A stretch of DNA of 64,000 nucleotides. It comes from an uncultured Gammaproteobacteria bacterium. Lineage in GTDB: Bacteria > Patescibacteriota > Microgenomatia > UBA10105 > UBA927. The position numbers were made by a program, and so were the translations under genes. Shown here piece after piece: positions 2,356-57,689 of the stretch (positions within the stretch are counted from its first letter, which is position 1; each line of letters opens with the position of its first letter). The stretch spans positions 34,148 through 98,147 of the forward strand of contig CAYMYO010000002.1 of NCBI GenBank assembly GCA_964394685.1, given 5' to 3'. The notes below the pieces were generated by a model. The model searched no databases and was not told where the DNA came from. It saw only the letters and a list, made by a program, of their open reading frames with translations.

Positions 2356-2760
2356 ATGATTAATGCTATGAATAACCTGCCTGATGCGAGTGGGAAATCG
2401 ACTATTCCAACACCGACCGGAGCTATTGGAATCGGAAAAGAAGCAGAAGGTGTTTCAATTTCTGATTCCGAACAGGGGTTACACGCCGCTGGAGCTGAAA
2501 TTGAACTTCCGAAAGAAATATCAGCTATTGGGGTAACACAGCAACCGACTGTTATCTCAATCCCTCCGCCTGTCAGTCAACTGGGGGTGAAACCAACAGG
2601 ATTAAATATTCCTATCCAAACAAGTCCATCTGTCGCAATTCCCTTGTCTGATAGTGAACTAGCCCAAGGGCTTCATATAAGTGTTATTAATTCGTTTCGG
2701 TGGCTCGCAGAATGGTGCAAAAAACAACTGATGATTTTTGGAATAAAGAGTAAAGTATGA
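2356..2760 (+). CDS. hypothetical protein
   Basis: 134-aa ORF whose stop overlaps the start of the next gene (ATGA), suggesting translational coupling. Confidence 0.4.
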   Translation: MINAMNNLPDASGKSTIPTPTGAIGIGKEAEGVSISDSEQGLHAAGAEIELPKEISAIGVTQQPTVISIPPPVSQLGVKPTGLNIPIQTSPSVAIPLSDSELAQGLHISVINSFRWLAEWCKKQLMIFGIKSKV

Positions 2761-5105
2761 CAGACCAATTCGCTGATCTTACATATAAGTTAGAAATGTT
2801 TGGAATAAGTTTGTTGATTGTGCTTATTTGTTTGAGTGTCGGTATTGGACTTTTGTATGTCGCTTTTTTGTTATGGAAGTATCGAAACAGAGAAAAACGT
2901 TCACTTTCCTATGTACTTTTACAAATTGCAGTTCCACGGGAAAATGAAATTAAAATCGATGCAGCTGAGCAGATGTTTGTCAGTCTCTATGGACTCTATA
3001 ACAAAAAATGGTGGGCGTTTTTAAAACCACAAGATCATATTGCATTTGAGATTGTGGCTCGTCGTGAAGATATCCGTTTTTATGTCTCGGTTCCGAGAAA
3101 TCTCATGGATTTAGTGGAAAAACAAATCCATGGAGCGTATCCCGGAGCGGATATTAAAGAAATAGAGGAATATTCCATTTTTACAAAAGAAGGGAAAGTT
3201 GCCTTTGTTCCTCTGGTTCTTAAGTATTCAAATTATTTTCCCATTCGGACATACAAAGATCTTCCGACTGATTCATTATCATCAATTACTTCGGTGTTAG
3301 CTAAAATGCAGGAAGGGGAAGGAGCAGTCATCCAAATTCTTATTCAACCGGCAAATGATAGGTGGCGAACAAATGGTCATTCGTTTATCTCAAAAATTAA
3401 AAAAGATGAAGCAAATCCGGAAAAGGCAAATTTTAAAGTGGATCAAAAAACACTTGAGTCGATTAATCAAAAAGTTCAGAAAACAGGATTTAACACCGTT
3501 GTTCGAATTGTCGTAACATCAACCACGAAAGAGCAAGCAGAGATGCATTTGAAAAATATTCTTGCGTCATTTGATCAGTTTTCTTCGGATAATAATGAAT
3601 TCCGGGAAATCCGCTTCTTCTTAAAATATGTGTTTATGATCGATTTTATTTATCGGTATTTTCCCGTTATTAATCTTCCTTTTTATAAACAATCGAGCGT
3701 ACTAAACAGTGACGAACTTGCAACACTCTTTCATTTGCCAAATAAAACAGTTGAAACACCGCATATCTTTTGGCTCAATGCCAAGCGCGCTCCCGCCCCC
3801 ATGCTCATACCGGAATCAGGACTTTTCCTAGGTCTTTCAAAATATCGAGGAGTAGAGCGGCCGATATACATTGGCGATGATGATAGAAGAAGACACATGT
3901 ATGTGATCGGAAAAACCGGTACAGGAAAGTCACAATTATTAGAAGAACTTGTGATGCAGGATATAAACGCAGGACGTGGGGTAGCTGTTATTGATCCTCA
4001 CGGAGATTTGATCACCGGGATTATGTCTCGGATGCCTGTCGCTCGCGCTGAGGATGTGATCTATTTTGACCCATCAGATACGGAACGTCCCATGGGGATA
4101 AATATGCTTGAGGCGCACACAGAAGAACAGAAGCATTTTGTAGTGACCTCCATTGTCGGACTTATGTATAAACTCTATGATCCGATGAAAACCGGTATTA
4201 TTGGTCCTAGGTTTGAACACGCGATTCGAAACGCCATGCTAACTGTTATGTGTGAACCGGGAAATACGTTTGTGGAAGTGGTAAGAATTCTTACTGACGC
4301 TGCGTTTGTTCAGGAGCTCTTACCTAAAGTATCTGACCCAATCATACGAAGGTATTGGACGGATCAAATAGCTCAAACAGCAGATTTTCATAAGTCAGAG
4401 GTGTTGGATTACATCGTTTCAAAATTTGGCCGATTTGTCACGAATAAACTCATGCGTAATATTATTGGACAATCAAAATCTTCGTTTGATTTTCGTCATG
4501 TGATGGATGAAGGAAAAATACTCCTTGTGAATCTTGCAAAAGGAAAATTAGGCGAGGAAAACAGCAATTTCTTGGGCCTTATTCTTGTTCCCAGAATTCT
4601 CATTGCTGCCATGAGTAGGCAGGAGATGCCGGAAGCAGAGCGCCGTGATTTTTATTTGTACGTTGACGAATTTCAGAATTTTGCTACTCCTGATTTTGCG
4701 CAAATATTGTCAGAAGCCCGGAAATACAGACTCAATTTGACTGTCGCAAACCAATTCATCGGACAAATGGAAGAGGAAGTGAAAAATGCGGTTTTTGGAA
4801 ACGTTGGATCTTTAATCGCGTTTCGTGTTGGAGTGACTGATGCAAATTATCTTCAGCACGAATTCCAACCGACATTTTCAGAAACTGATCTTATCAATAT
4901 CGATAAATTTAATGCATATATCAAAACAATTGTGCATAATGAACCGGTTAAACCATTTTCCATTGATTTAACAAAAGATATGAAAAAGATCATTGCGCTT
5001 CAAAATCCAAAGATAGCTGAAGCAATCATCCAACTATCAAGACTCAAATATGGCAGGTCGAAAGAATTAGTAGAGGCGGAAGTATCCCAGCGCGCACGTT
5101 TATAA
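2757..5105 (+). CDS. membrane-anchored FtsK/HerA/TraG-superfamily P-loop ATPase (TraG/VirD4 type IV coupling protein-like)
   Basis: N-terminal TM segment; Walker A VIGKTGTGKSQ followed by VIDPHGDL (DPxGE-like); Walker B LYVDEFQNF; SEARKYRLNLTVANQ arginine-finger region typical of TraG/VirD4/HerA. Confidence 0.5.
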   Translation: MTDQFADLTYKLEMFGISLLIVLICLSVGIGLLYVAFLLWKYRNREKRSLSYVLLQIAVPRENEIKIDAAEQMFVSLYGLYNKKWWAFLKPQDHIAFEIVARREDIRFYVSVPRNLMDLVEKQIHGAYPGADIKEIEEYSIFTKEGKVAFVPLVLKYSNYFPIRTYKDLPTDSLSSITSVLAKMQEGEGAVIQILIQPANDRWRTNGHSFISKIKKDEANPEKANFKVDQKTLESINQKVQKTGFNTVVRIVVTSTTKEQAEMHLKNILASFDQFSSDNNEFREIRFFLKYVFMIDFIYRYFPVINLPFYKQSSVLNSDELATLFHLPNKTVETPHIFWLNAKRAPAPMLIPESGLFLGLSKYRGVERPIYIGDDDRRRHMYVIGKTGTGKSQLLEELVMQDINAGRGVAVIDPHGDLITGIMSRMPVARAEDVIYFDPSDTERPMGINMLEAHTEEQKHFVVTSIVGLMYKLYDPMKTGIIGPRFEHAIRNAMLTVMCEPGNTFVEVVRILTDAAFVQELLPKVSDPIIRRYWTDQIAQTADFHKSEVLDYIVSKFGRFVTNKLMRNIIGQSKSSFDFRHVMDEGKILLVNLAKGKLGEENSNFLGLILVPRILIAAMSRQEMPEAERRDFYLYVDEFQNFATPDFAQILSEARKYRLNLTVANQFIGQMEEEVKNAVFGNVGSLIAFRVGVTDANYLQHEFQPTFSETDLINIDKFNAYIKTIVHNEPVKPFSIDLTKDMKKIIALQNPKIAEAIIQLSRLKYGRSKELVEAEVSQRARL

Positions 5106-5112
5106 AAAATTT

Positions 5113-6519
5113 ATGGACCAAACAGAAGATCCTCTCAGTATAGTCCCCGTTAAAAAACACGAGAAAGTGGTATATATTTTTAATCTCTCTGAAGATGTCT
5201 GGCCGTTTATTTGTGCCATGTCCGATACGCATGAGCGTCAATTTGAGATTGATTGGAATGCCAATCTTGCGGAACGTGATCTTATCTCAATGTCCGAAGA
5301 GAATGAAGCGATATTTATCACTCCTCGTCCAATTACAGACGGTTTCATGTTGTATTACCAAAAAGTATTCGGTACGAAACATATGACCGTCCTTGTCCCA
5401 AATACGCATACCGGAGAAATTTGTGAAGATATCATTCGAGATCCAGAGATCATAGAACAATTAGTCAACGCTTCCAATTTTGTAAAGAAACTTACTCTAA
5501 TAAGCTACACAACCAGTCCGCAGTTGTTACATCTGGTAAACGTTCTATCAGTTCGCGGGATTACTGTGTATACACCAGAGTCTCCGGAAGTAACCAGCGC
5601 TTGGACAGTAAACTTTTTTGGGAGTAAATCCGGCATCAGGCAGCTTGCCCAAAAAAGTGGAACGCTTGAGCCGGATTTTAAAGTAGCTGATGGGCTCATC
5701 TGCGCATCAATATACGATGCCGCAATGATAGCGGCAAATAAATACATCAAAGAGGATGGGGTAGTGATAAAAACCAACAAAGGACATTCAGGGGCTGGAG
5801 TACTCATTTTCCGTCCGGGAGATCTTCCAAAAGAATATAAAGCGTGTGAACTGGCAATCCATAACAAATTGCAAAAAGACAGCTATTGGGAGAAATTTCC
5901 AATTGTTATTGAAGATTTACTCAATGTCAATTCTGCAATTGGTGGGGGATTTCCAAATGTTGAGTTTAAAATAACAAAAAGCGGAAAAATCGAGTTTCTT
6001 TATTACTGTGCTATGCGGGTGGATAAAAACGGTGTTTATAAAGGACAAGAAATGCATGAATCAGTTCTTCCAGAACGTATTGCCGCACGCGTTATCGATA
6101 CAGGATTTTTTATCGGCGAACAATATGCGGCATCTGGATATCGGGGGTATTTTGATGTTGACTATGTTGCAGCCAAAAATGGGGAAATTTATGTGACAGA
6201 ATCTAATGCCAGGCGAACCGGTGGAACCCATATGTATAAAGCGGCACAAGAATTAATTGGCAAAGACTTTATGACCGATTCCTATACCCTTTCCAATAAT
6301 GATTATGAGTTGCCTCATGGAATAAAACCTTCATTTGAAAAAGTTATTGAAATACTTGCTCCGGTACTCTTTAACAGTAAAACAAAAGAAGGGGTCGTAC
6401 TTGCCTCATCAAATCTGTTAAAACAGAGCAAATTTGCCTATATCATCTTCGGAAAAAGCGAAAAACGCTCCCTTGAAATTGAAGCCTCCATGGAACAGCT
6501 TCTCACCAAGCTTCAGTAA
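5113..6519 (+). CDS. ATP-grasp domain enzyme (carboxylate-amine ligase-like)
   Basis: KTNKGHSGAGVLIF glycine-rich ATP-binding loop and YVTESNARRTGG C-terminal ATP-grasp motif. Confidence 0.5.
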   Translation: MDQTEDPLSIVPVKKHEKVVYIFNLSEDVWPFICAMSDTHERQFEIDWNANLAERDLISMSEENEAIFITPRPITDGFMLYYQKVFGTKHMTVLVPNTHTGEICEDIIRDPEIIEQLVNASNFVKKLTLISYTTSPQLLHLVNVLSVRGITVYTPESPEVTSAWTVNFFGSKSGIRQLAQKSGTLEPDFKVADGLICASIYDAAMIAANKYIKEDGVVIKTNKGHSGAGVLIFRPGDLPKEYKACELAIHNKLQKDSYWEKFPIVIEDLLNVNSAIGGGFPNVEFKITKSGKIEFLYYCAMRVDKNGVYKGQEMHESVLPERIAARVIDTGFFIGEQYAASGYRGYFDVDYVAAKNGEIYVTESNARRTGGTHMYKAAQELIGKDFMTDSYTLSNNDYELPHGIKPSFEKVIEILAPVLFNSKTKEGVVLASSNLLKQSKFAYIIFGKSEKRSLEIEASMEQLLTKLQ

Positions 6520-6551
6520 ATCACCCCATTTTTTGTTATAATTGCCGTATT

Positions 6552-6623
6552 GCGCCTGTAGCTCACCGGTAGAGCACCACTCTTATAAAGTGGGGGTACC
6601 TGGCTCGACACCAGGCAGGCGCA
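6552..6623 (+). tRNA. tRNA-Ile with anticodon UAU (reads AUA); no encoded CCA
   Basis: Hand-folded cloverleaf: acceptor GCGCCTG/CAGGCGC (7 bp), D arm GCTC-ACCGGTA-GAGC, anticodon stem CCACT/AGTGG with loop CTTATAA (U33, anticodon TAT at 6584-6586, A37), 5-nt variable loop, T arm CCTGG-CTCGACA-CCAGG, discriminator A. Confidence 0.65.
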
Positions 6624-6673
6624 CAAAAATAAAATAGATTAGATTACCGTATCTAACAAAGTAAAATAATACT

Positions 6674-7546
6674 ATGAGTGAATATAAAGAAACATTATTT
6701 GGTGCTTCTGCACGAGTTTCATTTGATTTAAGAAATAACATTGCATATTGGCAACCACGTGATGCATTTTCATCAGCAGATTTAGCAAGAAAAGTAAGAT
6801 TGACAAAGCAATTTAACCAAATAATAACACAAGCTCAGGTACATCATATATATCCATTACATATTATGGAAGCCACTTCAAGCAAAGTAATTACGGGGCT
6901 TGTAAGAGGTGTCGATGTAGGTTTTTCTCGAAGATATGAGGAAATTGCTGATTTTTTATTAGTTAGGTCACCTGAAGCGCGACTGAATTCGCTCATAGCG
7001 TATTTGCGAGCAATAGATGCTTTAAATCAGCGAGGTTTAATATTTAAGGATCATAAACCTGATTCAATTATTTACCCATACCAAACTCCTGATGGTCCTG
7101 ACGGAGGAATTAGTGTTATTGATGTTGATGGTATGATAGTATGTAGTTCTCCAGTATTAGCTTGGAAAATAGACCGAACAATTCTAACTCCTCAACCAAC
7201 TAACACATTTGATTTGGAAATGTTTTTTACGAAGGGACTAACCGTAGAAACTATTGAACGAAATTTTGGATCTTTATCTGAAGGTGTTGGAAAGTTACCT
7301 TTTGACAAGCTCATTCCCGTAGGAGTGGCGTTAACTCTACAGCGCGATTTTCCTTATAGTAATAGTGCTGCAGAAGTAGCTGAAAAATTAGAAGGGTATC
7401 GAGATGGCAGCTATCAACCCCCATTTCATTCGGATGACCCTTTGCACAATATGTCAACAGCAGATGCTTACAGAGTGGATATGCGTGAATCCTTTGAAGC
7501 TGGAATTGATGTCGCAAAAGGTCTGTTAGATATTTATCAGAAATGA
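6674..7546 (+). CDS. hypothetical protein, possibly atypical protein-kinase-like fold
   Basis: 290-aa ORF; LIFKDHKPDSIIY resembles a kinase catalytic loop (HxDxKPxN-like) and VIDVDG a DFG-like motif; weak. Confidence 0.4.
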   Translation: MSEYKETLFGASARVSFDLRNNIAYWQPRDAFSSADLARKVRLTKQFNQIITQAQVHHIYPLHIMEATSSKVITGLVRGVDVGFSRRYEEIADFLLVRSPEARLNSLIAYLRAIDALNQRGLIFKDHKPDSIIYPYQTPDGPDGGISVIDVDGMIVCSSPVLAWKIDRTILTPQPTNTFDLEMFFTKGLTVETIERNFGSLSEGVGKLPFDKLIPVGVALTLQRDFPYSNSAAEVAEKLEGYRDGSYQPPFHSDDPLHNMSTADAYRVDMRESFEAGIDVAKGLLDIYQK

Positions 7547-7562
7547 GTGAGCAGATAAATTT

Positions 7563-7596
7563 GAGGTGCTTGGCTCGACGCCATGCAGGCACACAA
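7563..7596 (+). repeat. degenerate direct repeat of the 3' half of the tRNA at 6552-6623 (att-like)
   Basis: TGGCTCGACgCCAtGCAGGCaCACAA matches tRNA 6601-6627 (TGGCTCGACaCCAgGCAGGCgCACAA) at 24 of 27 positions. Confidence 0.55.
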
Positions 7597-7613
7597 CATT
7601 GAAAAAAGGGAAA

Positions 7614-7976
7614 TTAGGCTTTCTGAAGGATTATCTTCTGAAGAGGGAAATTAATTATCAATTCATACTTTGCCAGTAAAGCCGTTCCTGCCAGCGCTTC
7701 TGTCCCAGCTGTAAGCGTTGCGGGAACTGTTTCTTGTTCTCCATCAAGCTCAACTTTTACGGAGAATACCAATTCTTGACTTATTCTCCCATCGGCATAC
7801 TCTACTGGGATAATGGCGGTAAGCTCAATGCCCAAGGTAACTGCAATGTTAATTGGTAAAGAAAGATATCCGTCGAAACCCGTGTCTAAGATTGCCTCTA
7901 GTAAATTGTTTTGCTTTGCCCCGCCCACTGCCAGCTTTATTTTGGGATGATTTCGGTCATCGAAGAATGTTTCCAT
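7614..7976 (-). CDS. retropepsin-like (clan AA) aspartic protease
   Basis: ILDTGFDGYLSLP carries the DTG active-site motif in a retropepsin-like context; 120 aa. Confidence 0.6.
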   Translation of the reverse strand: METFFDDRNHPKIKLAVGGAKQNNLLEAILDTGFDGYLSLPINIAVTLGIELTAIIPVEYADGRISQELVFSVKVELDGEQETVPATLTAGTEALAGTALLAKYELIINFPLQKIILQKA

Positions 7977-8253
7977 AAGATAAAGGCTGATGATATCCGG
8001 AGAAAGTTACTGCCGAGGGGAAACCAACTTTCATTAAATAAAAGATTTTGGCCGGAAAACGTTTTTTGGCTTTTTCAATGGCTTCGACTTGGGTTTGTCC
8101 AAAAAAATACTTTCCTGACTCTACTTCGATAGCAATAAAACTGCCCAGATATTTTTTTTCCATCTTTTTGCTTATTTTTTGGTAAACTTTCTCGCCCCTG
8201 TGGGCAATTTCTGCTGGGTACACTGTTGGGAGAGAGGTTAAGGGTTTATTCAT
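7957..8253 (-). CDS. hypothetical small protein co-transcribed with the retropepsin-like protease
   Basis: 98-aa ORF overlapping the downstream protease gene by 20 nt on the same strand. Confidence 0.45.
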   Translation of the reverse strand: MNKPLTSLPTVYPAEIAHRGEKVYQKISKKMEKKYLGSFIAIEVESGKYFFGQTQVEAIEKAKKRFPAKIFYLMKVGFPSAVTFSGYHQPLSYGNILR

Positions 8254-8334
8254 GATGCCAGTTTATCATTGATAGTCAGACAATTCAATTACGTGTATCA
8301 TATATATACTCTTACTTACTGATAAACAGGCATT

Positions 8335-8889
8335 ATGGAACAGGTCATACTCGTTGATGAGGAAAATAATCAAATCGGTATTGCTGATAAAGAAACCGTG
8401 CACACAAAAAATACTCCGCTTCATCGTGCGTTCTCGTTGTTTCTTTTTAATTCCAAAAAACAACTTCTTGTAACACAACGCGCATTAAATAAGAAAACAT
8501 TTCCGGGAGTGTGGACTAATAGCGTGTGCGGACATGTGTCTCTGGGCGAAGCCGCGTTTGACGCGGTGAAACGAAGATTAAGTGATGAGTTACATGTTGT
8601 TGCTACGGATATAAAAGAAGTTTCTCCGTATCGCTACCGGTTTGCAGATGTAAACGGTGTTGTTGAAAATGAAATCTGTCCTATTTTTATCGGATTTACT
8701 AACGAAGATCCAAAACCAAGTAAGAGTGAAGTAGAAGCATGGAAATGGGTTGGTTGGAGCGAATTTTTGAAAACAGTTAAAGAACATCCCGGAACCTATT
8801 CACCGTGGAGCGAAGAAGAAGCGGTTATACTGAACAATTGTCATCCTGAACTCGTTTCAGGATCCCAGCCGCTTTCAGATGGATGCTGA
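8335..8889 (+). CDS. idi: isopentenyl-diphosphate delta-isomerase, type 1 (Nudix)
   Basis: HRAFSLFLFN...LLVTQRALNKKTFPGVWTNSVCGH matches the IDI-1 signature; the last ~18 aa (NNCHPELVSGSQPLSDGC) and the stop are encoded by the repeat element at 8838-8908. Confidence 0.75.
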   Translation: MEQVILVDEENNQIGIADKETVHTKNTPLHRAFSLFLFNSKKQLLVTQRALNKKTFPGVWTNSVCGHVSLGEAAFDAVKRRLSDELHVVATDIKEVSPYRYRFADVNGVVENEICPIFIGFTNEDPKPSKSEVEAWKWVGWSEFLKTVKEHPGTYSPWSEEEAVILNNCHPELVSGSQPLSDGC

Positions 8890-8908
8890 AATAAATTCAG
8901 CATGACAA
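8838..8908. mobile_element. 70-bp twin-hairpin TIR element (family 1), copy 1, between convergent idi and tsaD
   Basis: TTGTCAT-[ATCCTGAA-ctcgt-TTCAGGAT]-cccagccgctttcagatgg-[ATGCTGAA-ataaa-TTCAGCAT]-GACAA; terminal inverted repeats TTGTCAT/ATGACAA. Confidence 0.6.
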
Positions 8909-8915
8909 ACGGCTT

Positions 8916-9971
8916 TCATACTTCAACGGATAAATCCGGAACTGCTTCGATAGTGTGCCAGTTAACAGGAGTTCCACGGAAGAATGCATAGCTTCCAATA
9001 TATGCGGCGTTATCCGTGCAGAGCGCGACGGGAGGGCAATGGAAATTAAAAGGTAATTTCTGAAACTTTTTACGAAGTCTTAGATTTGCAGCAACACCGC
9101 CGCCAATTAAAATCGATGAAGCGTTATGCAATTCAGCTGCTTTTATTGTTTTTGCTACCAATACATCAGTAATTGCTTCTTGGACTTCATACGCAAATTC
9201 ACTTTGCAATACTTTTTCTGATTTGGATCCTGAAACAAGTTCAGGATGACAAGCATGCCATGTTCTCATGATTGCAGTTTTGAGTCCTGAAAACGAAAAA
9301 TTGAGTGTATCGTCATGAAGGAGTGGGCGGGGTAATTGTATTTTGTATTTAGTATTTTGTATTTTGTATAACGAGGCAGATTCTTGGATTGCGAGACCTC
9401 CTCGGGAACCAAATCCCAAAAGCCGGGCAGTTTTGTCAAACGCCTCTCCAGCTGCATCATCAATAGTTCCTCCGAGCCATTTCAATTCTTTAACACTATT
9501 CATGAGAAATAGTTCTGTGTGTCCACCTGAGACAACAAGACCGATTGCTGGAAATGCAATTGGACAGTCCCTCGACTTCGCTCGGGACGAATTTTCATTC
9601 GAAGACGAAAGAAAATTCGCATACAAATGAGCAAGAACATGATTAACTGGAATAAGAGGTTTTTTGGTCACATATGCAATTGTTTTAGCAGTTTCAACAC
9701 CAATAAGAAGTGATCCGATGAGTCCCGGACCGATGGTAACTGCAATTGCGTCAATTGAATCATACATGAGATGAGCTTCTTCCAACGCTTCTTGAATCGT
9801 CGGGAGAATACATTTTAATTGTTCCCGCGATGCTACTTCCGGTACAATCCCGCCATATTTTTCATGCATGGCAGAAGATGATGCTATGACATTACTTAGA
9901 ATTGTTGTTCCGTCTTTTATAACAGCAGAAGCTGTTTCATCACAGGATGATTCAATTGCGAGTATGGTCAT
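8916..9971 (-). CDS. tsaD: tRNA N6-adenosine threonylcarbamoyltransferase TsaD (Kae1/YgjD family) with three in-frame repeat-derived insertions
   Basis: MTILAIESSCDETASAV, VSGGHTEL and FSFSGLKT motifs; extra loops SSSNENSSRAKSRDC, KIQNTKYKIQ and ACHPELVSGSKSEKV are encoded by repeat sequences. Confidence 0.8.
   Translation of the reverse strand: MTILAIESSCDETASAVIKDGTTILSNVIASSSAMHEKYGGIVPEVASREQLKCILPTIQEALEEAHLMYDSIDAIAVTIGPGLIGSLLIGVETAKTIAYVTKKPLIPVNHVLAHLYANFLSSSNENSSRAKSRDCPIAFPAIGLVVSGGHTELFLMNSVKELKWLGGTIDDAAGEAFDKTARLLGFGSRGGLAIQESASLYKIQNTKYKIQLPRPLLHDDTLNFSFSGLKTAIMRTWHACHPELVSGSKSEKVLQSEFAYEVQEAITDVLVAKTIKAAELHNASSILIGGGVAANLRLRKKFQKLPFNFHCPPVALCTDNAAYIGSYAFFRGTPVNWHTIEAVPDLSVEV
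9225..9252. repeat. half copy of the family-1 element (hairpin A plus ATGACAA terminus) inside tsaD
   Basis: GGATCCTGAAacaagTTCAGGATGACAA; translated in-frame on the minus strand as CHPELVSGS. Confidence 0.55.
9338..9369. repeat. GTATTTT heptamer tandem repeat (about 4.5 units) inside tsaD
   Basis: gtattttgtatttagtattttgtattttgtat; encodes KIQNTKYKIQ on the minus strand; same array at 38289-38327. Confidence 0.6.
9566..9601. repeat. hairpin repeat family 4 (TCCCGAGCGRAGTCGAGGGA, R = a/g) inside tsaD
   Basis: The reverse complement of gtccctcgacttcgctcgggac is near-identical to the intergenic atcccgagcggagtcgagggatt at 17498-17520; followed by the palindrome cgaattttcattcg. Confidence 0.5.
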
Positions 9972-11112
9972 AGGATTTAAGTTTTATGCTGATGTAAAGC
10001 ACGGATAACATGAGAAACTGGACGACAATGAGAGCTTTCGCAGGTCCTACAGAATCAGCGATGAATCCCAAGATAGGCGAGAATAGTCCGTAGAACACAT
10101 TGCCGAAGAAGGAATTTATTGATGCGAGGGTCGCCCTCTGTCCCTCGGAATATTCTTTCTGCATGAGGTTGTTGATGCTGACTTCCTTTGCTCCGTAAAA
10201 AAGCGAAGCGGATGCTGTAATGACCGGTGAAAAAACAGTCGGGACTCCGTAAGCAATGAAATTGATAACACGTGTATATGCATACGTGACGATGAGGATA
10301 TTATACTGGCCGATTTTCCGGATAATCTTGCCGCTGAACCAGAAGCTTAAAAATGCCGCGCCAAATGACAGCATTCTCGAAAACCCGATTGCCCAGAGAG
10401 GCCAGAGTGTGCCGATGAACGCGGCATTGAAATGAAAAGATGACTCGCCGATGCCGTAGCTAACGATATCCGCAAGAGAAAGAAGCCTGAGTTTTTTATT
10501 GTTCCACAGGCGGAGCGATGAAATGCGTATGTGGGAAAAAATATTTGCTTTTTCCCGTGACGTTTTTTCCGGTTCCCGAAGAAAGAGGGATATGAAAAAA
10601 CACAAGAACTGGGGAACTACCGAGAGCCACATGACGAGGGAAAACGATTGCGCCGCAAGCACACTTCCGACAACCGCCCCGACCATGAGGGCGATCTGAA
10701 ACATGGATTTTGTTTTTCCAAGATAATGGGAGAATGTCTCTTTTTTTCTGGATTCCCTAAGAGAGTCGTAGAGGAAAGCATCATTGTTTCCGCTGTACCA
10801 GGAGCGGGATAGTCCTTCAAGAAGCGCTCCGATAAAAAGTGGCCAGTACGAACCTCCTATTGCGTAAAAAACAGCAGAGACGGCTGCTGAAAATGCGCCG
10901 AGCATGACAGTTTTTTTCCGTCCGATCATGTCTGAAAAAATTCCTGTCGGTACTTCAAAAATTGCTGACGAAACCATAATAGCGGAAAAAAGGCTCATAG
11001 CAAGCGTATACGAGCCGGTTATTTTTGCAAAATAAATGACCAGTACGGCACTATGAAATTTAAAATCCGTAAAGAAGTTAAATAGTGCGAGTAGCTTGAT
11101 ATTTCGCTCCAT
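9952..11112 (-). CDS. MFS transporter
   Basis: 386 aa with about 12 predicted TM helices and MFS-like loop motifs; overlaps the tsaD start by 20 nt. Confidence 0.65.
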   Translation of the reverse strand: MERNIKLLALFNFFTDFKFHSAVLVIYFAKITGSYTLAMSLFSAIMVSSAIFEVPTGIFSDMIGRKKTVMLGAFSAAVSAVFYAIGGSYWPLFIGALLEGLSRSWYSGNNDAFLYDSLRESRKKETFSHYLGKTKSMFQIALMVGAVVGSVLAAQSFSLVMWLSVVPQFLCFFISLFLREPEKTSREKANIFSHIRISSLRLWNNKKLRLLSLADIVSYGIGESSFHFNAAFIGTLWPLWAIGFSRMLSFGAAFLSFWFSGKIIRKIGQYNILIVTYAYTRVINFIAYGVPTVFSPVITASASLFYGAKEVSINNLMQKEYSEGQRATLASINSFFGNVFYGLFSPILGFIADSVGPAKALIVVQFLMLSVLYISIKLKSYDHTRN

Positions 11113-11123
11113 ATTAGTCTATT

Positions 11124-11540
11124 TTACTCAACTTCGAGGGATTTGGCGAGTGAAGTAGTGGAAATGTTGGGAATGCGAGGGATAATAACTGCTTTAGCGC
11201 TAATTAATTCTGCCTGTTTTTGTTTTTTTTCAAGTATTGGGTCTCCTTCTGTTAAGGCAATAATATCTGGACGAATATTTTTTATGACGTCAAAATATTC
11301 TTCATCTGTTTTAAGCGGAGAAATTGAAATAACTTCGTCAACAAATTTGATAGCAAGAAGCATTTTTTTCCGTTCCTCTTGGGTGTGGACCGGTCGATGT
11401 TCTCCTTTTAATTTTTTTATCGTTTCATCGGACTCTAACAGTACCGCAAGTTTGTCACCCAGTTTTTTCGCCTCTTCCAAAAAATATATATGACCGATAT
11501 GAATAAGATCAAAACATCCGCCCACCAAAACTGTTTTCAT
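11124..11540 (-). CDS. cytidylyltransferase-like nucleotidyltransferase (TagD/RfaE domain II-like)
   Basis: VLVGGCFDLIHIGHIYFL is the (H/T)xGH nucleotidyltransferase motif. Confidence 0.6.
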   Translation of the reverse strand: MKTVLVGGCFDLIHIGHIYFLEEAKKLGDKLAVLLESDETIKKLKGEHRPVHTQEERKKMLLAIKFVDEVISISPLKTDEEYFDVIKNIRPDIIALTEGDPILEKKQKQAELISAKAVIIPRIPNISTTSLAKSLEVE

Positions 11541-12916
11541 TGTTTTACTCCCTTAAGATACACTGCTTGCCAAGGACGGTAATTAGATACGAAGGTTTTT
11601 TCAAATATCACTTTTCCTTCTTTTGTCACGCGATAATCAAACGATGCTTTTGCTCCCCATGCGGCAAAGTCAACTTGTTTGACTGTTCCAACGGGAAGTG
11701 TCGGATCATCTTGATAAAGAGCCGGTGGTGGAGCAGATATTCCTCCGACAACATGATTAAGAATTTCCGCTTTTCTTCCATCAGTTGCTCCATAAAATTC
11801 AAACGCAAGATTAACATTTGCTAAGTCAATTTTTGTTTGGATTAATATATATACAGGAGTATCGTTAATAAATTTCAGATCTTCCGTGGGATTAAACACT
11901 GTTGCATCAAGTCCTGCTTTTGATCCGTCATCTTCATAATAATGAACACGGTATGAATGTGCACTTCGTTCAGTAACGGGAAGTCCTGCGTTGAGCGCTG
12001 CTCGAAATAATGTTGTTGAAACCTGACAAACTCCGCCACCATCACCGAGTACCGTTCTCCCATCTTTAATAATATATGCAGACTGATACCCAGTTGCTGC
12101 TGAGATATCTCCAACCGTGTCATTAAAAGAAAACGTTGTTCCTGGGGGAATAAGCACTCCATTGAGTTTTGCTGCAGCAAGAGCGACATTATGTATGCGC
12201 CCTGCGATAGATCCCGGAAATTCAGAATATCCGCGACCAATGAGTTCCTTAATACCAAATGAATTTGTTTGCTTCGTTGAGATGATTGGTTCAATTGTGT
12301 CAATTGGAATTGGTAGAATAATCAGTTTTGTGTTTGTTTGGATTGCTGATAAAAGGGCTTCTACAAATCGTTCTCGCAGTTTTTGAACATGTACCACTCT
12401 CCCTTTTTTTGATGGTTTAAAGGCAATAACCTTTCCTTTTGTAAATTGGAAGAGCGCGTTTTCCACTGGAATATTGATCGTTTCTGATATAGATGTAATA
12501 AACTGGTCTACCGCATCCGTATCCCATCGAAGTGAAGGGGGCAGATTGATTGGTTGTTTAAAATACCGCTGTCTTATGTTACTTAAAAAATGTTTTGACC
12601 GTCCGACTGATAGTGCTTGCGTTGCAGAAAGCGTGGCATCATATGATAAACCAAGTGTCTCTGCTGAAAGTGTTGCTATGTGAGATTCGAAGCGAAATTC
12701 AAATTGAATATTCGTAAGAGTGTTGTTTTTGTCGAGCCAAAATATCTCAACTTCTTTTTGTGTTTTTCCTCCAAATGGAACGTTTCCGATTGAAACAGTT
12801 GGGTAAACACGATTCAAATATGAGGTCTCAAATTTCCATACGTATCCGGCACATACGCCAAAAACGATCATGATGATCGAACAAACGATTATAGCCTTGT
12901 GGTTTCTTTTTTGCAT
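11537..12916 (-). CDS. VanW family protein with N-terminal membrane anchor
   Basis: GGGVCQVSTTLFRAALNAGLP matches the VanW signature; N-terminal TM segment. Confidence 0.6.
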   Translation of the reverse strand: MQKRNHKAIIVCSIIMIVFGVCAGYVWKFETSYLNRVYPTVSIGNVPFGGKTQKEVEIFWLDKNNTLTNIQFEFRFESHIATLSAETLGLSYDATLSATQALSVGRSKHFLSNIRQRYFKQPINLPPSLRWDTDAVDQFITSISETINIPVENALFQFTKGKVIAFKPSKKGRVVHVQKLRERFVEALLSAIQTNTKLIILPIPIDTIEPIISTKQTNSFGIKELIGRGYSEFPGSIAGRIHNVALAAAKLNGVLIPPGTTFSFNDTVGDISAATGYQSAYIIKDGRTVLGDGGGVCQVSTTLFRAALNAGLPVTERSAHSYRVHYYEDDGSKAGLDATVFNPTEDLKFINDTPVYILIQTKIDLANVNLAFEFYGATDGRKAEILNHVVGGISAPPPALYQDDPTLPVGTVKQVDFAAWGAKASFDYRVTKEGKVIFEKTFVSNYRPWQAVYLKGVKQ

Positions 12917-15524: not shown

Positions 15525-17481
<1,957 letters not shown>

Positions 17482-54137: not shown

Positions 54138-55151
54138 ATGCCGGCAACAGTCAGAAGCGAATTTTCACTTGCACTTAACCAAGTAGCAACAGAACGGGGA
54201 CTTGATCCAAAAATAGTCCTTGAGACCATTCAAGCAGCTATCCTTGCTGCGTATCGAAAAGACTATCCAACAGATGAAGTTGATACCCTAACTGCATCTG
54301 TTGATCCTGACACTGGGGAAGCAAAAATTGTCAAAGAAGGAAAAGACGTCACTCCTTCGGGATTTGGCCGTATTGCAGCGCAAACTGCAAAACAAGTTAT
54401 CCTTCAACGGATCCGCGAAGAAGAAAAACAAGCAGTACTAACGGATTATCAAACAAAAATTGGCATGATTGTTCCGGGAATGGTGCTTCGTTTTGATGGC
54501 CCTAACATCATTGTGGATATTGGTCGAACGCAGGCGGTCATGCCGGTATCTGAGCAAAATCCGGGTGAACGGTATCATTTAAATGGGCGGCTCACGTTTT
54601 ACATTGAAGGAATTCGGGAAACTCCCCGAGGAAATGAAATTATTGTCTCACGCAGCCATAAGGGACTTGTTGAAAGACTATTTCATCGGGAAGTGCCGGA
54701 AGTTGCCCAAGGAGCAGTTGAACTACGAATAGTTGTGAGAGAGGCAGGAGGAAGAACAAAAATAGCGGTATTTTCTAAACAATCAGGCGTTGACCCTGTT
54801 GGATCTTGTGTCGGGCAAAAAGGTGTTCGGGTAACAGCAGTTATTAATGAACTCGGAGGAAATGAAAAAGTAGATATCATCCAATGGAGTGATCAGCCAA
54901 AGGCATTTATTACGGCAGCTCTAGCGCCAGCAAAAGATATTGATGTAGCGCTCAATGAAGAAACGAAAATCGCAACCGTTACGGTTCCTGAAGACCAATT
55001 ATCTCTTGCTATTGGAAGAGATGGTCAAAATGTACGGCTTGCTGCAAAATTAACCGGTTGGAAAATAGATATTCAGGGGAAACCGGTCGTTGTTAAAGAG
55101 GAAAAAACTGAAACGCCAAAAACAGAAGTAGTTCCTGAAGTCCATGCATGA
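54138..55151 (+). CDS. nusA: transcription termination/antitermination factor NusA
   Basis: N-terminal domain, S1 domain (GMIVPGMVLRFDG...IVDIG), KH domains (GVDPVGSCVGQKGVRV). Confidence 0.85.
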   Translation: MPATVRSEFSLALNQVATERGLDPKIVLETIQAAILAAYRKDYPTDEVDTLTASVDPDTGEAKIVKEGKDVTPSGFGRIAAQTAKQVILQRIREEEKQAVLTDYQTKIGMIVPGMVLRFDGPNIIVDIGRTQAVMPVSEQNPGERYHLNGRLTFYIEGIRETPRGNEIIVSRSHKGLVERLFHREVPEVAQGAVELRIVVREAGGRTKIAVFSKQSGVDPVGSCVGQKGVRVTAVINELGGNEKVDIIQWSDQPKAFITAALAPAKDIDVALNEETKIATVTVPEDQLSLAIGRDGQNVRLAAKLTGWKIDIQGKPVVVKEEKTETPKTEVVPEVHA

Positions 55152-56605
55152 AAAAAAGTCAGAAGAAATCAGAAATGTCTGTAGCACGTCCGCCGATAGT
55201 TGCGGTCTTAGGTCATGTTGACCACGGAAAAACATCCCTTCTTGATTACATAAGAAAAACCCAAGTAGCTAGCCGTGAACACGGAGGAATAACTCAACAC
55301 ATTGGTGCATATCAGATTCCAGGCATTACCTTCATCGATACTCCCGGCCACGAAGCATTTGCAAAAATGCGTACCCGCGGCGCATCAGCGTCAGATATCG
55401 CCCTTCTTGTGGTAGCAGCTGATGATGGCGTGATGCCGCAAACAAAAGAATCCATCCGGATGATAACGGAAGCGGGAGTACCCATGATTGTTGTTATTAA
55501 TAAAATCGACATGGAGACAGCAAATGTCGATAAAGTCAAAAAAGATTTAGCCCGAGCCGGTGTTCAGGTGGAAGGATTCGGAGGAACAATTCCGTTTGTG
55601 TTGGTATCCGCTAAAACCGGTGCAGGAGTAAAAGATCTTCTTGAGATCATTAAACTTGTAGCTGATGAAAAGAAACTATCCAATGAGCCAATAGCTCCTC
55701 TTGAAGCAGTGGTCATTGAAACCAGAATTGATAAAGGAAAGGGACTCGTTGCAACAGTCATTGTGAAAAAAGGAACACTTCGGTTTGGAACGACACTCTA
55801 TAACGGAGTCCAACCAATAGCGAAAGTTCGGGCCATGTTTGATGAAGCAGGAGTTGGTGTATCAGAAGCTCCTCCTTCAAAACCCGTGGAAGTATTGGGA
55901 TTTACGAAACTTCCACAGGTGGGAACCAGTATCACCGACGTCATCCAACAAGAAGCAGTATTGCCGGAACAAGCTGTTCCACTTTCGCAAGAACAAACCG
56001 TGCAACAATTCCTTTCCACAATGGAACAAAAGAAAAAATTAGCAATTATTATCAAAGCAGACACATTCGGGTCTCTTGAGGCCATTTTAGAAGCACTCGG
56101 AGCGGATGTAGACATTGTGACAGCGGGTGTTGGTGATATTGCTGATCAGGATATACTCCTTGCTAAGTCTACAGGCGCGTTTATAATTGGCTTTAATGTC
56201 AAACTCAAACAGGAAATTCAGAAACTCGCGCAAATCGAAGGAGTGGTCACGCGGACATACACCATTATTTATGAACTATTGGACGAGCTTCGTGATGTGA
56301 TTGCAGGAGCAATGGAAGTCATCATGCAGGAACGGGAACTGGGAAAAGGAACGGTGATTGCTGAATTTCCTTTTGACGGGAAACGGATTGCCGGCACAAA
56401 AGTCATCTCAGGCAGAATTGCCCGCGGAGATCAGGTGAAGATTATGCGTAAAGAAGAAGAAGTGGGCATTGCAAAAATTAAGTCTGTCCGAAAAGGAAAG
56501 CTAGAGGAAACAAAAATCGAACCAGGGAACGATTGCGGTATTTTATTTGACCGTGACGTTGCGTTTGCCATAGGTGATGATATAATCGCATTCACCAACC
56601 GATGA
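55148..56605 (+). CDS. infB: translation initiation factor IF-2 (reduced form lacking N-terminal domains)
   Basis: G domain VAVLGHVDHGKTSLLD, DTPGHEAF, NKID; C-terminal beta-barrel domains. Confidence 0.85.
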   Translation: MKKSQKKSEMSVARPPIVAVLGHVDHGKTSLLDYIRKTQVASREHGGITQHIGAYQIPGITFIDTPGHEAFAKMRTRGASASDIALLVVAADDGVMPQTKESIRMITEAGVPMIVVINKIDMETANVDKVKKDLARAGVQVEGFGGTIPFVLVSAKTGAGVKDLLEIIKLVADEKKLSNEPIAPLEAVVIETRIDKGKGLVATVIVKKGTLRFGTTLYNGVQPIAKVRAMFDEAGVGVSEAPPSKPVEVLGFTKLPQVGTSITDVIQQEAVLPEQAVPLSQEQTVQQFLSTMEQKKKLAIIIKADTFGSLEAILEALGADVDIVTAGVGDIADQDILLAKSTGAFIIGFNVKLKQEIQKLAQIEGVVTRTYTIIYELLDELRDVIAGAMEVIMQERELGKGTVIAEFPFDGKRIAGTKVISGRIARGDQVKIMRKEEEVGIAKIKSVRKGKLEETKIEPGNDCGILFDRDVAFAIGDDIIAFTNR

Positions 56606-56607
56606 AT

Positions 56608-56621
56608 CCGCCAGCTGGCGG
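56608..56621. repeat. GC palindrome type A (CCGCCAGCTGGCGG), intergenic copy after infB
   Basis: Perfect palindrome 2 bp after the infB stop; no T run. Confidence 0.5.
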
Positions 56622-56642
56622 ACTGCCTCCAATAAATATTGT

Positions 56643-57509: not shown

Positions 57510-57617
57510 CTATGGTAGCAAAATTAGAGGTTAATAAAAAAGGTGGATTGGAAGCCGGACAATCGCGCGTCGTTGGTAATCTTAAAATTACGGGAGCGTA
57601 ATAATATTTCTTCCTTG

Positions 57618-57680: not shown

Positions 57681-57689
57681 TAAATAGTT

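What the first reader, a model, noticed from the sequence alone, without database searches (positions are those of the whole stretch)
6552..6623. tRNA-Ile with a genomically encoded UAU anticodon
The tRNA folds into a canonical cloverleaf with anticodon loop CTTATAA, giving anticodon UAU. Most bacteria decode AUA with a CAU tRNA modified to lysidine by TilS. A genomically encoded UAU Ile tRNA is known only from scattered lineages (for example Mycoplasma mobile and some Bifidobacterium/Lactobacillus). It implies a different AUA-decoding strategy in this AT-rich genome, where AUA codons are frequent. The T loop has C at position 54 instead of the usual T.
Basis: partly seen in the sequence, partly recalled or inferred. 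Interest (0 to 1): 0.6.

Follow-up and report, generated by a model that had tools for sequence, protein, structure and literature searches.

The report
Conserved UAU isoleucine tRNA, CPR bacterium
The window carries a real, intact isoleucine tRNA gene with a directly encoded UAU anticodon, and the same gene sits at the same chromosomal spot in dozens of related ultra-small (CPR/Patescibacteria) bacteria, so this clade probably reads the AUA codon without the usual lysidine trick, although the absence of the lysidine enzyme could not be checked.

Summary
ARAGORN and Rfam both call one tRNA in the 64 kb window, at 6552-6623(+): tRNA-Ile, anticodon UAU, 60 bits, T-loop CTCGACA with C54. An independent assembly has the identical sequence.

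The window is chromosomal DNA of a CPR/Patescibacteria bacterium (Microgenomates-like), not a phage.

The gene is ancestral. A tRNA-Ile(UAU) lies 0-4.6 kb downstream of the same VirD4-like ATPase in 25 of 31 orthologous loci that have enough flank. Across 42 distinct sequences, 20 of 21 stem pairs show compensatory changes, and C32-U33-U34-A35-U36-A37 never varies.

AUA is frequent (18.8 per 1000 codons, 22% of Ile codons) and aligns with Ile/Val/Leu in orthologues. Neighbouring CAU tRNAs are initiator and elongator Met, not Ile2.

The best reading is a working AUA decoder of the known Mycoplasma mobile / Bifidobacterium kind, in a new and much larger lineage. Whether tilS and tRNA-Ile2(CAU) are absent could not be tested.

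Two extras were found:
- The window gene carries a 970-bp islet inserted in its anticodon loop, with the displaced 3' half at 7555-7594.
- Relatives show repeated anticodon-loop insertions, including complete tRNAs nested inside tRNAs.

The parts
6534..6542 (+). Extended -10-like promoter element TGTTATAAT. The TATAAT hexamer (6537-6542) ends 9 nt before tRNA position +1.
   Evidence: Read from the sequence. 24 of 43 related tRNA-Ile(UAU) genes have a perfect TATAAT and 34 of 43 have at least 5/6 in the 45 nt upstream, mostly 8-16 nt before +1. The consensus scanner did not list it because the -35 is poor. This is a consensus match, not proof of function.
6552..6623 (+). tRNA-Ile gene with genomically encoded UAU anticodon (anticodon 6584-6586; C32 6582; A37 6587; C54 6604; discriminator A73 6623; no encoded CCA).
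   Evidence: ARAGORN. Rfam RF00005 at 60 bits, E 1.8e-10. Identical in independent assembly L207. The family alignment A3 shows 20/21 pairs with compensatory changes.
6586..7555 (+). About 970-bp insertion (islet) in the anticodon loop, at CTTA^TAA. It begins with the 3' half that completes the working tRNA (6586-6623) and carries ORF290.
   Evidence: Direct repeat 6585-6634 / 7555-7604 at 78% identity. Relatives L121, L122 and L125 have the tRNA directly followed by IPP isomerase. The same breakpoint is seen in six other loci. That the proximal 3' half came from the insert is inferred from the known behaviour of tDNA-integrating islands (PMC4383910).
6674..7546 (+). ORF290, the cargo of the islet; function unknown.
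   Evidence: No Pfam, NCBIfam or PADLOC hit. Only two proteins in the 5.8-billion-protein database: itself and a 54% relative that sits beside toxin-antitoxin genes and not beside a tRNA. No relative in IMG/VR. The AlphaFold model is unusable, pLDDT 36.
7555..7594 (+). Displaced, decaying copy of the tRNA 3' half (A35 to A73). It also has C54 (T-loop CTCGACG) and three mismatches against the 5' half.
   Evidence: the repeat finder family D1. nhmmer with the tRNA-Ile(UAU) family profile matches model positions 34-73, E 3e-4 in a 789 kb search. Sequence read.
7614..8253 (-). Two small overlapping ORFs (120 aa retropepsin-like with a DTG motif, and 98 aa). They are absent from the relatives' tRNA-to-idi interval and are probably an earlier insertion at the same tRNA.
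   Evidence: PADLOC protease models PDLC01052 (E 3.7e-6) and PDLC01133 for the 120-aa ORF. Gene calls in L207. Absence in L121/L122/L125.
2757..5105 (+). VirD4/TraD/HerA-like ATPase (782 aa), the conserved upstream neighbour used as the synteny anchor.
   Evidence: Pfam T4SS-DNA_transf, TrwB_AAD_bind, TraG-D_C and DUF87. Orthologues at 41-97% identity in 85 loci.
5113..6519 (+). ATP-grasp-like protein (468 aa) between the ATPase and the tRNA in the window's closest relatives.
   Evidence: Weak NCBIfam and Pfam ATP-grasp matches. Syntenic in L121, L122 and L125.
8335..9971 (.). Conserved downstream neighbours: IPP isomerase (8335-8889 +) and TsaD (8916-9971 -). TsaD is the catalytic subunit that makes t6A37, a modification expected on this tRNA.
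   Evidence: NCBIfam NF002995 at 216 bits and TIGR03723 at 353 bits. Synteny shown. The t6A37 link is established knowledge (PMC3575796), not tested here.

Best explanation
This is a functional, vertically inherited chromosomal gene for tRNA-Ile(UAU) in a CPR/Patescibacteria (Microgenomates-like) bacterium, and it decodes the frequent AUA codon by direct U34-A pairing.

Proposed steps:
- Inferred: it is transcribed from its own extended -10 promoter and matured by RNase P and 3' processing.
- Inferred: it receives CCA after transcription, because none is encoded.
- Inferred: A37 becomes t6A through the Tsa complex; TsaD lies 2.3 kb downstream.
- Inferred: it is charged by an IleRS that accepts U34.
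- Shown: the gene, its fold, its deep conservation in synteny, stem covariation, the invariant UAU loop, and heavy use of AUA as an Ile codon.
- Inferred, about 0.55-0.6: in this clade it has replaced the tRNA-Ile2(CAU)/TilS-lysidine system rather than duplicating it.
- Unknown: how AUG misreading by U34 is avoided (unmodified U34 plus ribosome discrimination as in Mycoplasma mobile, or a U34 modification).

The window's copy is additionally a mosaic. A 970-bp islet integrated in the anticodon loop regenerated the 3' half and displaced the old one.
For: - One tRNA, Ile(tat), 60 bits, with perfect stems; identical in a second assembly.
- The host is chromosomal CPR DNA. The window holds TsaD, idi, MetRS, hrcA-grpE-dnaK-dnaJ, nusA-infB-rpsO-pnp, RNase J and groES/EL. 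There is no phage match.
- The same tRNA and gene order occur in Ca. Gottesmanbacteria and Patescibacteria MAGs.
- In metagenomes, 38 of 80 orthologous ATPase loci carry tRNA-Ile(UAU) downstream. Among loci with at least 2.5 kb of flank this is 25 of 31 at 49% identity or more, against 1 of 11 at 48% or less.
- Across 42 distinct sequences, 20/21 pairs change on both sides while staying paired, CUUAUA is invariant and A73 is invariant.
- AUA makes up 367 of 19,545 codons and occurs in every ORF counted.
- Window AUA codons align with I/V/L and never M in four ATPase orthologues (28/12/4/0). In E. coli DnaK they align with I6 V2 L1 M1.
- Nearby CAU tRNAs are initiators (1x72 mismatch) or elongator-Met-like; none is clearly Ile2.
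- A promoter-like TATAAT is conserved upstream.
- No viral contig carries this tRNA type.
- The precedent for the mechanism is PMC3575796.
Against: - C54 replaces the near-universal U54 and is unique among the 42 relatives, so the T-loop U54-A58 pair cannot form normally.
- No CCA is encoded.
- tilS, tRNA-Ile2(CAU) and IleRS were not seen, but only 64 kb of the genome plus local flanks of relatives could be examined. The negative tblastn over 789 kb samples one neighbourhood only.
- TilS is reported in 98% of bacteria and described as evolutionarily stable (PMC6063277). Some bacteria carry both systems (PMC3575796). Redundancy therefore cannot be dismissed.
- E. coli-type IleRS charges a UAU tRNA poorly (PMC3575796), and nothing is known about this clade's IleRS.
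- No expression or aminoacylation data exist.
Confidence: 0.8

Rival explanations
1. Redundant decoder. The genome also has TilS and tRNA-Ile2(CAU), and tRNA-Ile(UAU) is an extra or supplementary AUA reader, as proposed for Lactobacillus casei, Cyanothece and Ferrimonas.
For: Such double systems exist (PMC3575796). TilS is nearly universal (PMC6063277). Nothing here shows that tilS is absent. One neighbouring CAU tRNA (L164 8133-8205, loop CTCATAA) scores within the Ile(UAU) range on the family profile, 48 bits.
Against: Keeping two systems over the depth of this clade (ATPase identity down to about 44-50%) would be unexpected in genomes of about 1 Mb. The local AUR-box tRNA cluster holds Ile(UAU), fMet and Met but no Ile2. 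The L164 tRNA has a Met-type acceptor stem, GGCAACG (comparison with E. coli tRNA-Met is from memory).
Confidence: 0.35
2. Mobile or phage-type tRNA. The gene arrived with the inserted islet or another mobile element and is not part of the host's core decoding set.
For: An islet sits in the gene and probably supplied its present 3' half. tRNA-Ile(UAU) is very common in viral contigs, with more than 120 hits. The upstream neighbour is a conjugation-type ATPase.
Against: The 5' half and the upstream 18 nt are orthologous to L121. The gene is at the same place in 25/31 orthologous loci and shows covariation. There is no IMG/VR match to this tRNA type or to ORF290. The best viral tRNA is 76% identical, against 86% for the syntenic L121. 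The ATPase is a conserved chromosomal gene of the clade.
Confidence: 0.04
3. Decaying pseudogene. C54 and the insertion history mean that the window copy no longer works, and another gene elsewhere does the job.
For: C54 is unique among the 42 relatives. The closest relatives also have odd T-loops, A54/U58. Insertions into this gene are recurrent.
Against: All 21 stem pairs are intact and the Rfam score is 60 bits. By contrast, the displaced fragment and the L164 outer gene show what decay looks like, with several stem mismatches. The displaced old 3' half also has C54, so C54 predates the insertion and was carried by a working gene. The promoter is intact. AUA is abundant.
Confidence: 0.06
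4. Different identity. The tRNA has a UAU anticodon but is charged with another amino acid (for example Met, so that AUA = Met as in some mitochondria).
For: Identity was not measured. The body shares the GTAGCTCA...AGAGC core with Met tRNAs.
Against: AUA positions align with Ile/Val/Leu, just as AUU and AUC do, and unlike AUG. A73, U12-A23 and, in the window gene, C4-G69 match E. coli IleRS determinants (determinants are from the literature cited in PMC3575796). The 3-70 pair is G-C here but C-G in the neighbouring Met tRNAs.
Confidence: 0.02

Closest known systems
Mycoplasma mobile tRNA-Ile2(UAU) system (Taniguchi et al. 2013, PMC3575796)
   Same: A bacterial, genomically encoded UAU anticodon for AUA; C32/A37/A38 loop context; AUA is a common codon; reduced genome.
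   Different: In M. mobile, loss of tilS, unmodified U34, the IleRS Arg865 adaptation and ribosomal discrimination were all shown by experiment. None of these is known here. The case here is a whole deep clade rather than a single species.
Bifidobacterium / Neorickettsia tRNA-Ile(UAU) with eukaryote-type IleRS and no tilS (PMC3575796, PMC8450103)
   Same: A lineage-wide replacement of Ile2(CAU) by a UAU tRNA.
   Different: The IleRS type of this CPR clade is unknown, and the lineage is unrelated.
Bacteria with both tilS and tRNA-Ile(UAU): Lactobacillus casei, Cyanothece PCC 7424, Ferrimonas balearica (PMC3575796)
   Same: A UAU tRNA is present; possible redundancy.
   Different: Those are sporadic strain- or species-level occurrences. 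Here the gene is syntenic and conserved across dozens of lineages.
Archaeal tRNA-Ile(UAU) of Nanoarchaeum equitans and Korarchaeum cryptofilum (PMC8450103)
   Same: Ultra-small or reduced organisms that dispense with the C34 modification enzyme and encode UAU.
   Different: A different domain, and the enzyme lost is TiaS, not TilS.
tRNA-gene-targeting genomic islands (Islander, PMC4383910)
   Same: The window shows the hallmark pair: a regenerated tRNA plus a displaced 3' fragment as a direct repeat, with the breakpoint in the anticodon loop.
   Different: The islet is only about 970 bp, has no integrase, and carries one orphan ORF. Relatives hold 115-120-nt inserts that contain a whole replacement tRNA flanked by inverted repeats, which the classical attP x attB scheme does not produce.

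Membership tests
tRNA (Rfam RF00005) | Cloverleaf sequence and structure scoring above the family's gathering threshold | tested here: met
   60 bits against 29, full-length match. ARAGORN agrees.
Bacterial tRNA-Ile(UAU) AUA decoder (M. mobile / Bifidobacterium kind) | UAU anticodon encoded in the gene, not produced by modification of CAU | tested here: met
   TAT at 6584-6586. It is invariant in 42 distinct orthologues.
Bacterial tRNA-Ile(UAU) AUA decoder (M. mobile / Bifidobacterium kind) | Isoleucine identity (A73, A37 for t6A, Ile-type body; AUA read as Ile) | tested here: met
   A73 in 42/42, A37 invariant, U12-A23 in 37/42, C4-G69 in the window gene. AUA aligns with I/V/L like AUU and AUC. 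Charging itself was not measured.
Bacterial tRNA-Ile(UAU) AUA decoder (M. mobile / Bifidobacterium kind) | AUA codons actually used in the genome | tested here: met
   18.8 per 1000 codons, 22% of Ile codons, present in all 52 ORFs counted.
Bacterial tRNA-Ile(UAU) AUA decoder (M. mobile / Bifidobacterium kind) | No tilS and no tRNA-Ile2(CAU) in the genome | not testable with these tools
   None in the window and none in 789 kb of related flanks.
Bacterial tRNA-Ile(UAU) AUA decoder (M. mobile / Bifidobacterium kind) | IleRS adapted to U34 (basic residue at E. coli W905, or eukaryote-type IleRS2) | not testable with these tools
   There is no ileS in the window or in the loci.
Phage- or mobile-element-borne tRNA | Lies within a prophage or mobile element and is absent from the same site in relatives | tested here: not met
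   Syntenic in 25/31 orthologous loci. Flanked by housekeeping genes. No phage or IMG/VR match.
tDNA-integrated genomic island (Islander definition) | A regenerated tRNA and a displaced tRNA fragment in direct orientation bound the insert | tested here: met
   6585-6634 against 7555-7604, 78% identity. The fragment matches model positions 34-73. The insert is absent in L121/L122/L125.
tDNA-integrated genomic island (Islander definition) | Tyrosine integrase gene inside the island next to the tRNA | tested here: not met
   The only ORF (290 aa) has no Pfam, NCBIfam or PADLOC match, including at relaxed E-values.
Archaeal-type intron-containing or split tRNA (considered for the nested tRNAs in relatives) | Bulge-helix-bulge motif at the exon-intron junctions | tested here: not met
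   The junctions lie directly opposite each other in a continuous 10-14-bp helix, with no 3-nt bulges (folds; sequences).

The most novel reading that the evidence does not exclude
A whole deep branch of the Candidate Phyla Radiation (Microgenomates-like; dozens of lineages in groundwater and sediment metagenomes) has abandoned TilS/lysidine and reads AUA solely with a genomically encoded tRNA-Ile(UAU). This would be by far the largest bacterial group to do so. In the same clade, the anticodon loop of this gene (and of tRNA-Met) is the target of a so far undescribed kind of insertion that brings its own replacement tRNA or 3' half ('tRNA nested in tRNA'). That would be a self-compensating homing cassette.
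Probability: 0.4. Interest if true: 0.75.

Novelty: new member of a known kind. Interest (0 to 1): 0.52.

Why it matters
Papers up to 2026 treat bacterial tRNA-Ile(UAU) as a curiosity found in roughly 10-20 genomes (PMC3575796, PMC8450103, bioRxiv 10.64898/2026.02.03.703510). They treat TilS as an almost universal, evolutionarily stable and essential enzyme (PMC6063277).

A large, ancient CPR clade that keeps a UAU tRNA under purifying selection would do three things:
- It would add many independent sequences for studying how U34 avoids reading AUG.
- It would offer a natural test of whether TilS is dispensable on a large scale.
- It would bear on annotation of CPR genomes and on TilS as an antibacterial target.

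The recurrent anticodon-loop insertions also matter. If they are mobile, they form a compact system in which an insertion repairs the gene it breaks.

Tried and rejected
1. Phage origin. Megablast of 4000-12000 against 50,697 phage records found nothing. An IMG/VR scan for this tRNA's D-arm plus UAU loop gave 0 hits. A broad UAU pattern hit more than 120 viral contigs, but none has this D-loop or T-loop.
2. Finding the window's own genome. An exact look-up of TsaD found nothing. ORF290 is on record on a 181-kb NCBI contig, but only a 4.5-kb Logan contig was returned.
3. tilS and ileS. tblastn of E. coli TilS and IleRS against the window plus 87 loci (789 kb) gave only the MetRS cross-hit. This is uninformative because it samples one neighbourhood. 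I ran no further search on TilS. Hits carry no organism or contig link to this clade, and an E. coli query would return enterobacterial proteins first.
4. Literature. No paper in the library combines Patescibacteria/CPR with tilS, lysidine, AUA decoding or tRNA introns.
5. ORF290. There is no family match at relaxed thresholds and no viral relatives. The AlphaFold model has pLDDT 36, so no fold search was run. A kinase-like 'HKPD...DVDG' motif seen by eye is unsupported.
6. Archaeal-type intron reading of the nested tRNAs. Rejected because there is no bulge-helix-bulge, and one outer gene (L164) is visibly decaying.
7. Group I intron. Rejected because the inserts are only 104-120 nt.
8. Flanking inverted repeats as a general feature of tRNA genes in these loci. 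Only the nested ones have them: 4 of 75, against 2.5 expected by shuffling.

Full report
**1. Observation**

ARAGORN reports a single tRNA in the 64 kb window: tRNA-Ile with anticodon tat at 6552-6624 on the + strand. Rfam's tRNA model matches 6552-6623 over its full length at 60 bits (gathering score 29, E = 1.8e-10), and nothing else in the window reaches any Rfam threshold.

Read directly, the gene is GCGCCTG-TA-GCTC-ACCGGTA-GAGC-A-CCACT-CTTATAA-AGTGG-GGGTA-CCTGG-CTCGACA-CCAGG-CAGGCGC-A. All four stems are perfect. U34 A35 U36 lie at 6584-6586 and A73 at 6623. CCA is not encoded.

A Logan assembly of run SRR13723397 (L207) covers window 3983-8499 with 2 mismatches in 4517 bases and has the identical tRNA. 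The unusual bases are therefore not assembly errors.

**2. What genome this is**

The window is ordinary chromosome at about 40% G+C. It has no similarity to 50,697 phage records around the tRNA. Its genes include:
- TsaD, IPP isomerase, an MFS transporter, a VanW-domain protein and a sugar-binding protein
- groES-groEL
- a short MetRS, TatD, RmuC and two UvrD-type helicases
- FemAB paralogues, LytR and MurJ
- hrcA-grpE-dnaK-dnaJ, nusA-infB-(DHH)-rpsO-pnp and RNase J

A scan of one genome per GTDB species for the D-arm plus UAU loop of this tRNA found five contigs:
- one Candidatus Gottesmanbacteria MAG
- one 'Patescibacteria group' MAG
- three third-party MAGs labelled 'uncultured Gammaproteobacteria'

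Four of the five share the window's gene order: 782-aa VirD4/TraD-like ATPase, (ATP-grasp), tRNA-Ile(UAU), IPP isomerase, TsaD. They match at 64-72% nucleotide identity. I conclude that the window comes from a CPR/Patescibacteria bacterium of the Microgenomates type. The 'Gammaproteobacteria' labels are probably wrong; that is an inference.

**3. The gene is ancestral in a deep clade**

I aligned five ATPase orthologues (A2) and used the alignment to pull 80 loci from JGI/ENA metagenomes, at 97% down to 41% identity.

ARAGORN finds a tRNA-Ile(tat) in 38 of them, 3-4644 nt downstream of the ATPase, 31 on the same strand. Many loci without it simply end too early. Among loci with at least 2.5 kb of downstream sequence:
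- 25 of 31 with 49% ATPase identity or more have the tRNA
- 1 of 11 with 48% or less have it

With the window and the genome loci there are 43 genes, 42 of them distinct. In their alignment (A3):
- RNAalifold recovers the cloverleaf, and 20 of 21 pairs show changes on both sides that keep the pair.
- C32-U33-U34-A35-U36-A37 is invariant.
- A73 is invariant.

That is the signature of long purifying selection on a working tRNA with a UAU anticodon. At the syntenic position immediately downstream of the ATPase no locus has a CAU tRNA in place of the UAU gene; the CAU tRNAs that do occur in these loci lie further away and are treated in section 5.

A TATAAT hexamer, often preceded by TG, sits 8-16 nt upstream of most of these genes. 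It is perfect in 24 of 43 and at least 5/6 in 34 of 43. In the window it is TGTTATAAT at 6534-6542. This is a consensus match only.

**4. AUA use and meaning**

Over 52 ORFs (19,545 codons), AUA occurs 367 times. That is 18.8 per 1000 codons and 22% of Ile codons, with at least one in every ORF. By the scale used in PMC12514573 this is 'high' usage.

| Comparison | Residues aligned with window AUA codons |
|---|---|
| Four ATPase orthologues | I 28, V 12, L 4, M 0 |
| E. coli DnaK | I 6, V 2, L 1, M 1 |

The ATPase profile is the same as for AUU and AUC, whereas AUG aligns mostly with M. AUA therefore means isoleucine here and needs an efficient decoder.

**5. The neighbouring CAU tRNAs**

The same loci contain 25 tRNA(cat) genes, typically 2-4 kb from the Ile(UAU) gene. 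They fall into two types:
- Initiators, with a C1/U1 x A72 mismatch (CGCGGGG...CCCCGCAA).
- An elongator-Met-like type, with GGC/GCC-A-G/A-xG acceptor stems, a C3-G70 pair, and mostly a UUCAUAA loop.

Scored with a profile of the Ile(UAU) family, the Ile genes reach 38-73 bits and all CAU genes reach 34 bits or less. The exception is L164 8133-8205 at 48 bits. Its acceptor stem, GGCAACG, is Met-like (comparison with E. coli tRNA-Met is from memory).

So the three tRNAs of the AUR box cluster together in this clade, and the slot normally filled by Ile2(CAU) is filled by Ile(UAU). This suggests replacement but is local evidence only.

**6. What could not be tested**

- The window has none of them.
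- tblastn of E. coli TilS and IleRS against 789 kb of window plus related loci is negative apart from MetRS.
- That sequence all comes from one neighbourhood.
- The protein databases give no link from a hit to this clade.

On parsimony, I put the probability that TilS/Ile2 is absent at about 0.55-0.6. The genomes are about 1 Mb, the UAU gene has been retained for a very long time, and no Ile2 is seen in the AUR cluster.

**7. The gene is also an insertion target**

*In the window.* A direct repeat links 6585-6634 (from A35 to 10 nt past the tRNA) with 7555-7604 at 78% identity. The second copy is a tRNA 3' half. It matches family-profile positions 34-73 with E 3e-4 and has three mismatches against the 5' half.

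Between the two copies lies ORF290 (6674-7546). It has no family match and only one distant relative anywhere.

L121, L122 and L125 have the tRNA directly followed by IPP isomerase. The window therefore carries an insertion at CTTA^TAA in the anticodon loop. This is the classical mark of a tDNA-integrating island: a regenerated gene plus a displaced fragment (PMC4383910). No integrase remains. By that model the present 3' half, including C54, came from the insert.

The displaced half also has C54 (CTCGACG). C54 was therefore already present in this lineage's working gene.

*In relatives.* The same breakpoint recurs:
- 3' remnants follow complete genes in L156 (4548-4586) and L153 (5170-5201).
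- In L135, L161 and L164, a complete inner tRNA-Ile(UAU) flanked by an 11-14-bp inverted repeat sits inside the anticodon loop of an outer tRNA-Ile(UAU).
- In L156, a tRNA-Met sits inside a tRNA-Met at TTCA^TAA.

Further details of the nested cases:
- The outer genes of L135, L161 and L156 are still perfectly paired, while that of L164 is decaying.
- Only the outer gene has a promoter.
- Three of the inserts share end sequences (TGACA...TGTCA).
- There is no target duplication and no bulge-helix-bulge.

I read these as DNA-level insertions that bring their own replacement tRNA. The mechanism is unknown. I found no description of this in the library.

**8. T-loop and tertiary pairs**

Position 54 is U in 38 of the 42 distinct genes and A in three. 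The A54 genes all have U58 and are the window's closest relatives; L122 and the L135 outer gene show the same pattern. Position 54 is C only in the window.

Position 55 is C instead of U in six Ile genes and in several Met genes.

The 15-48 pair covaries: G-C 21, A-U 8, C-A 7, A-C 4.

The clade evidently tolerates T-loops that cannot carry m5U54 or pseudouridine 55. In the window, truB is not at its usual place between infB and rpsO. I did not follow that up.

**9. Comparison and verdict**

The gene works like the tRNA-Ile(UAU) of Mycoplasma mobile, where unmodified U34, an adapted IleRS and ribosomal discrimination were shown (PMC3575796). It also resembles the Bifidobacterium/Neorickettsia cases with eukaryote-type IleRS, and the archaeal cases in Nanoarchaeum and Korarchaeum (PMC8450103).

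It meets the sequence-level criteria of that class: encoded UAU, Ile identity, and AUA in use. The genome-level criteria (no tilS or Ile2, adapted IleRS) are untested.

It is not phage-type and not a pseudogene.

I rate it a new member of a known kind. What is new is the scale, a conserved syntenic gene across a deep CPR clade. The papers I could search do not mention this, and they still call such tRNAs rare (bioRxiv 10.64898/2026.02.03.703510).

Interest is moderate. It would rise substantially if TilS proves absent from the clade, or if the nested-tRNA insertions prove to be a mobile system.

Noticed in passing
L135 3601-3779; L161 8434-8622; L164 4520-4697 (-); L156 6111-6303: Complete tRNAs nested inside the anticodon loop of another tRNA of the same kind: Ile(UAU) in Ile(UAU) three times and Met(CAU) in Met(CAU) once. 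The inner tRNA is flanked by 11-14-bp inverted repeats, there is no target duplication, and the insertion lies exactly between positions 35 and 36. Three outer genes are intact and one is decaying. The whole unit folds as a double cloverleaf.
   Followed up: partly
window 6585-6634 / 7555-7604; L156 4548-4586; L153 5170-5201: Displaced 3' halves of tRNA-Ile(UAU) lie downstream of complete genes, all starting at the anticodon. In L156 the displaced half has a canonical TTCGATT T-loop, while the working half has TCCGACT.
   Followed up: partly
alignment A3 (42 tRNA-Ile(UAU) genes); Met tRNAs in L156, L179/L199, L195: Non-canonical T-loops are common in this clade: A54 with U58 (L121, L122, L125, L150, L135 outer), C54 (window), and C55 instead of U55 in six Ile genes and several Met genes. 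This suggests that m5U54 and pseudouridine 55 are dispensable here.
   Followed up: partly
window 55148-58292: The nusA-infB-...-rpsO-pnp cluster has a DHH-family gene where rbfA and truB usually sit. No truB is seen in the window. This may relate to the C55 T-loops.
   Followed up: no
L132, L139, L147, L152, L156, L157, L161, L164, L165, L171, L179, L196, L199: tRNA-Ile(UAU), initiator tRNA-fMet and elongator tRNA-Met lie within a few kb of each other, so the three tRNAs of the AUR codon box form a loose cluster. Several initiators have unusually short D-arms and odd T-loops (for example GGCGCAACTCC).
   Followed up: partly
alignment A3, positions 15 and 48: The Levitt pair covaries in an unusual way: G15-C48 (21), A15-U48 (8), C15-A48 (7, including the window) and A15-C48 (4).
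   Followed up: no
window 7614-8253 (-): A 120-aa retropepsin-like ORF (DTG motif; PADLOC 'protease' models) overlaps a 98-aa ORF. The pair lies between the displaced tRNA half and idi and is absent from relatives. It may be a small defence or toxin-antitoxin-type module inserted at the tRNA.
   Followed up: no
L121, L124, L125 (CAYWVJ01, CAYZAZ01, CAZHOQ01): Three third-party MAGs titled 'uncultured Gammaproteobacteria' carry this CPR-type tRNA. L121 and L125 also share the CPR gene order and 64-70% nucleotide identity with the window, so the taxonomic label looks wrong for them.
   Followed up: no
window 2757-6519: A 782-aa VirD4/TraD/HerA-like ATPase is a highly conserved chromosomal gene of the clade, with more than 580 metagenome matches. 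In the closest relatives it is followed by an ATP-grasp protein. Upstream are 601-aa and 134-aa ORFs with no family match. It may be part of the Patescibacteria type IV secretion apparatus (PMC12102498).
   Followed up: no
window 15811-17481: The chaperonin downstream of groES scores only 218 bits on Pfam Cpn60_TCP1, which is low for a GroEL, and its ORF starts at TTG.
   Followed up: no
L208 (SRR22387800 contig): The only relative of ORF290 (54% identity) sits next to BrnT/CopG and PIN toxin-antitoxin genes and not next to a tRNA. ORF290 therefore behaves as movable cargo.
   Followed up: partly
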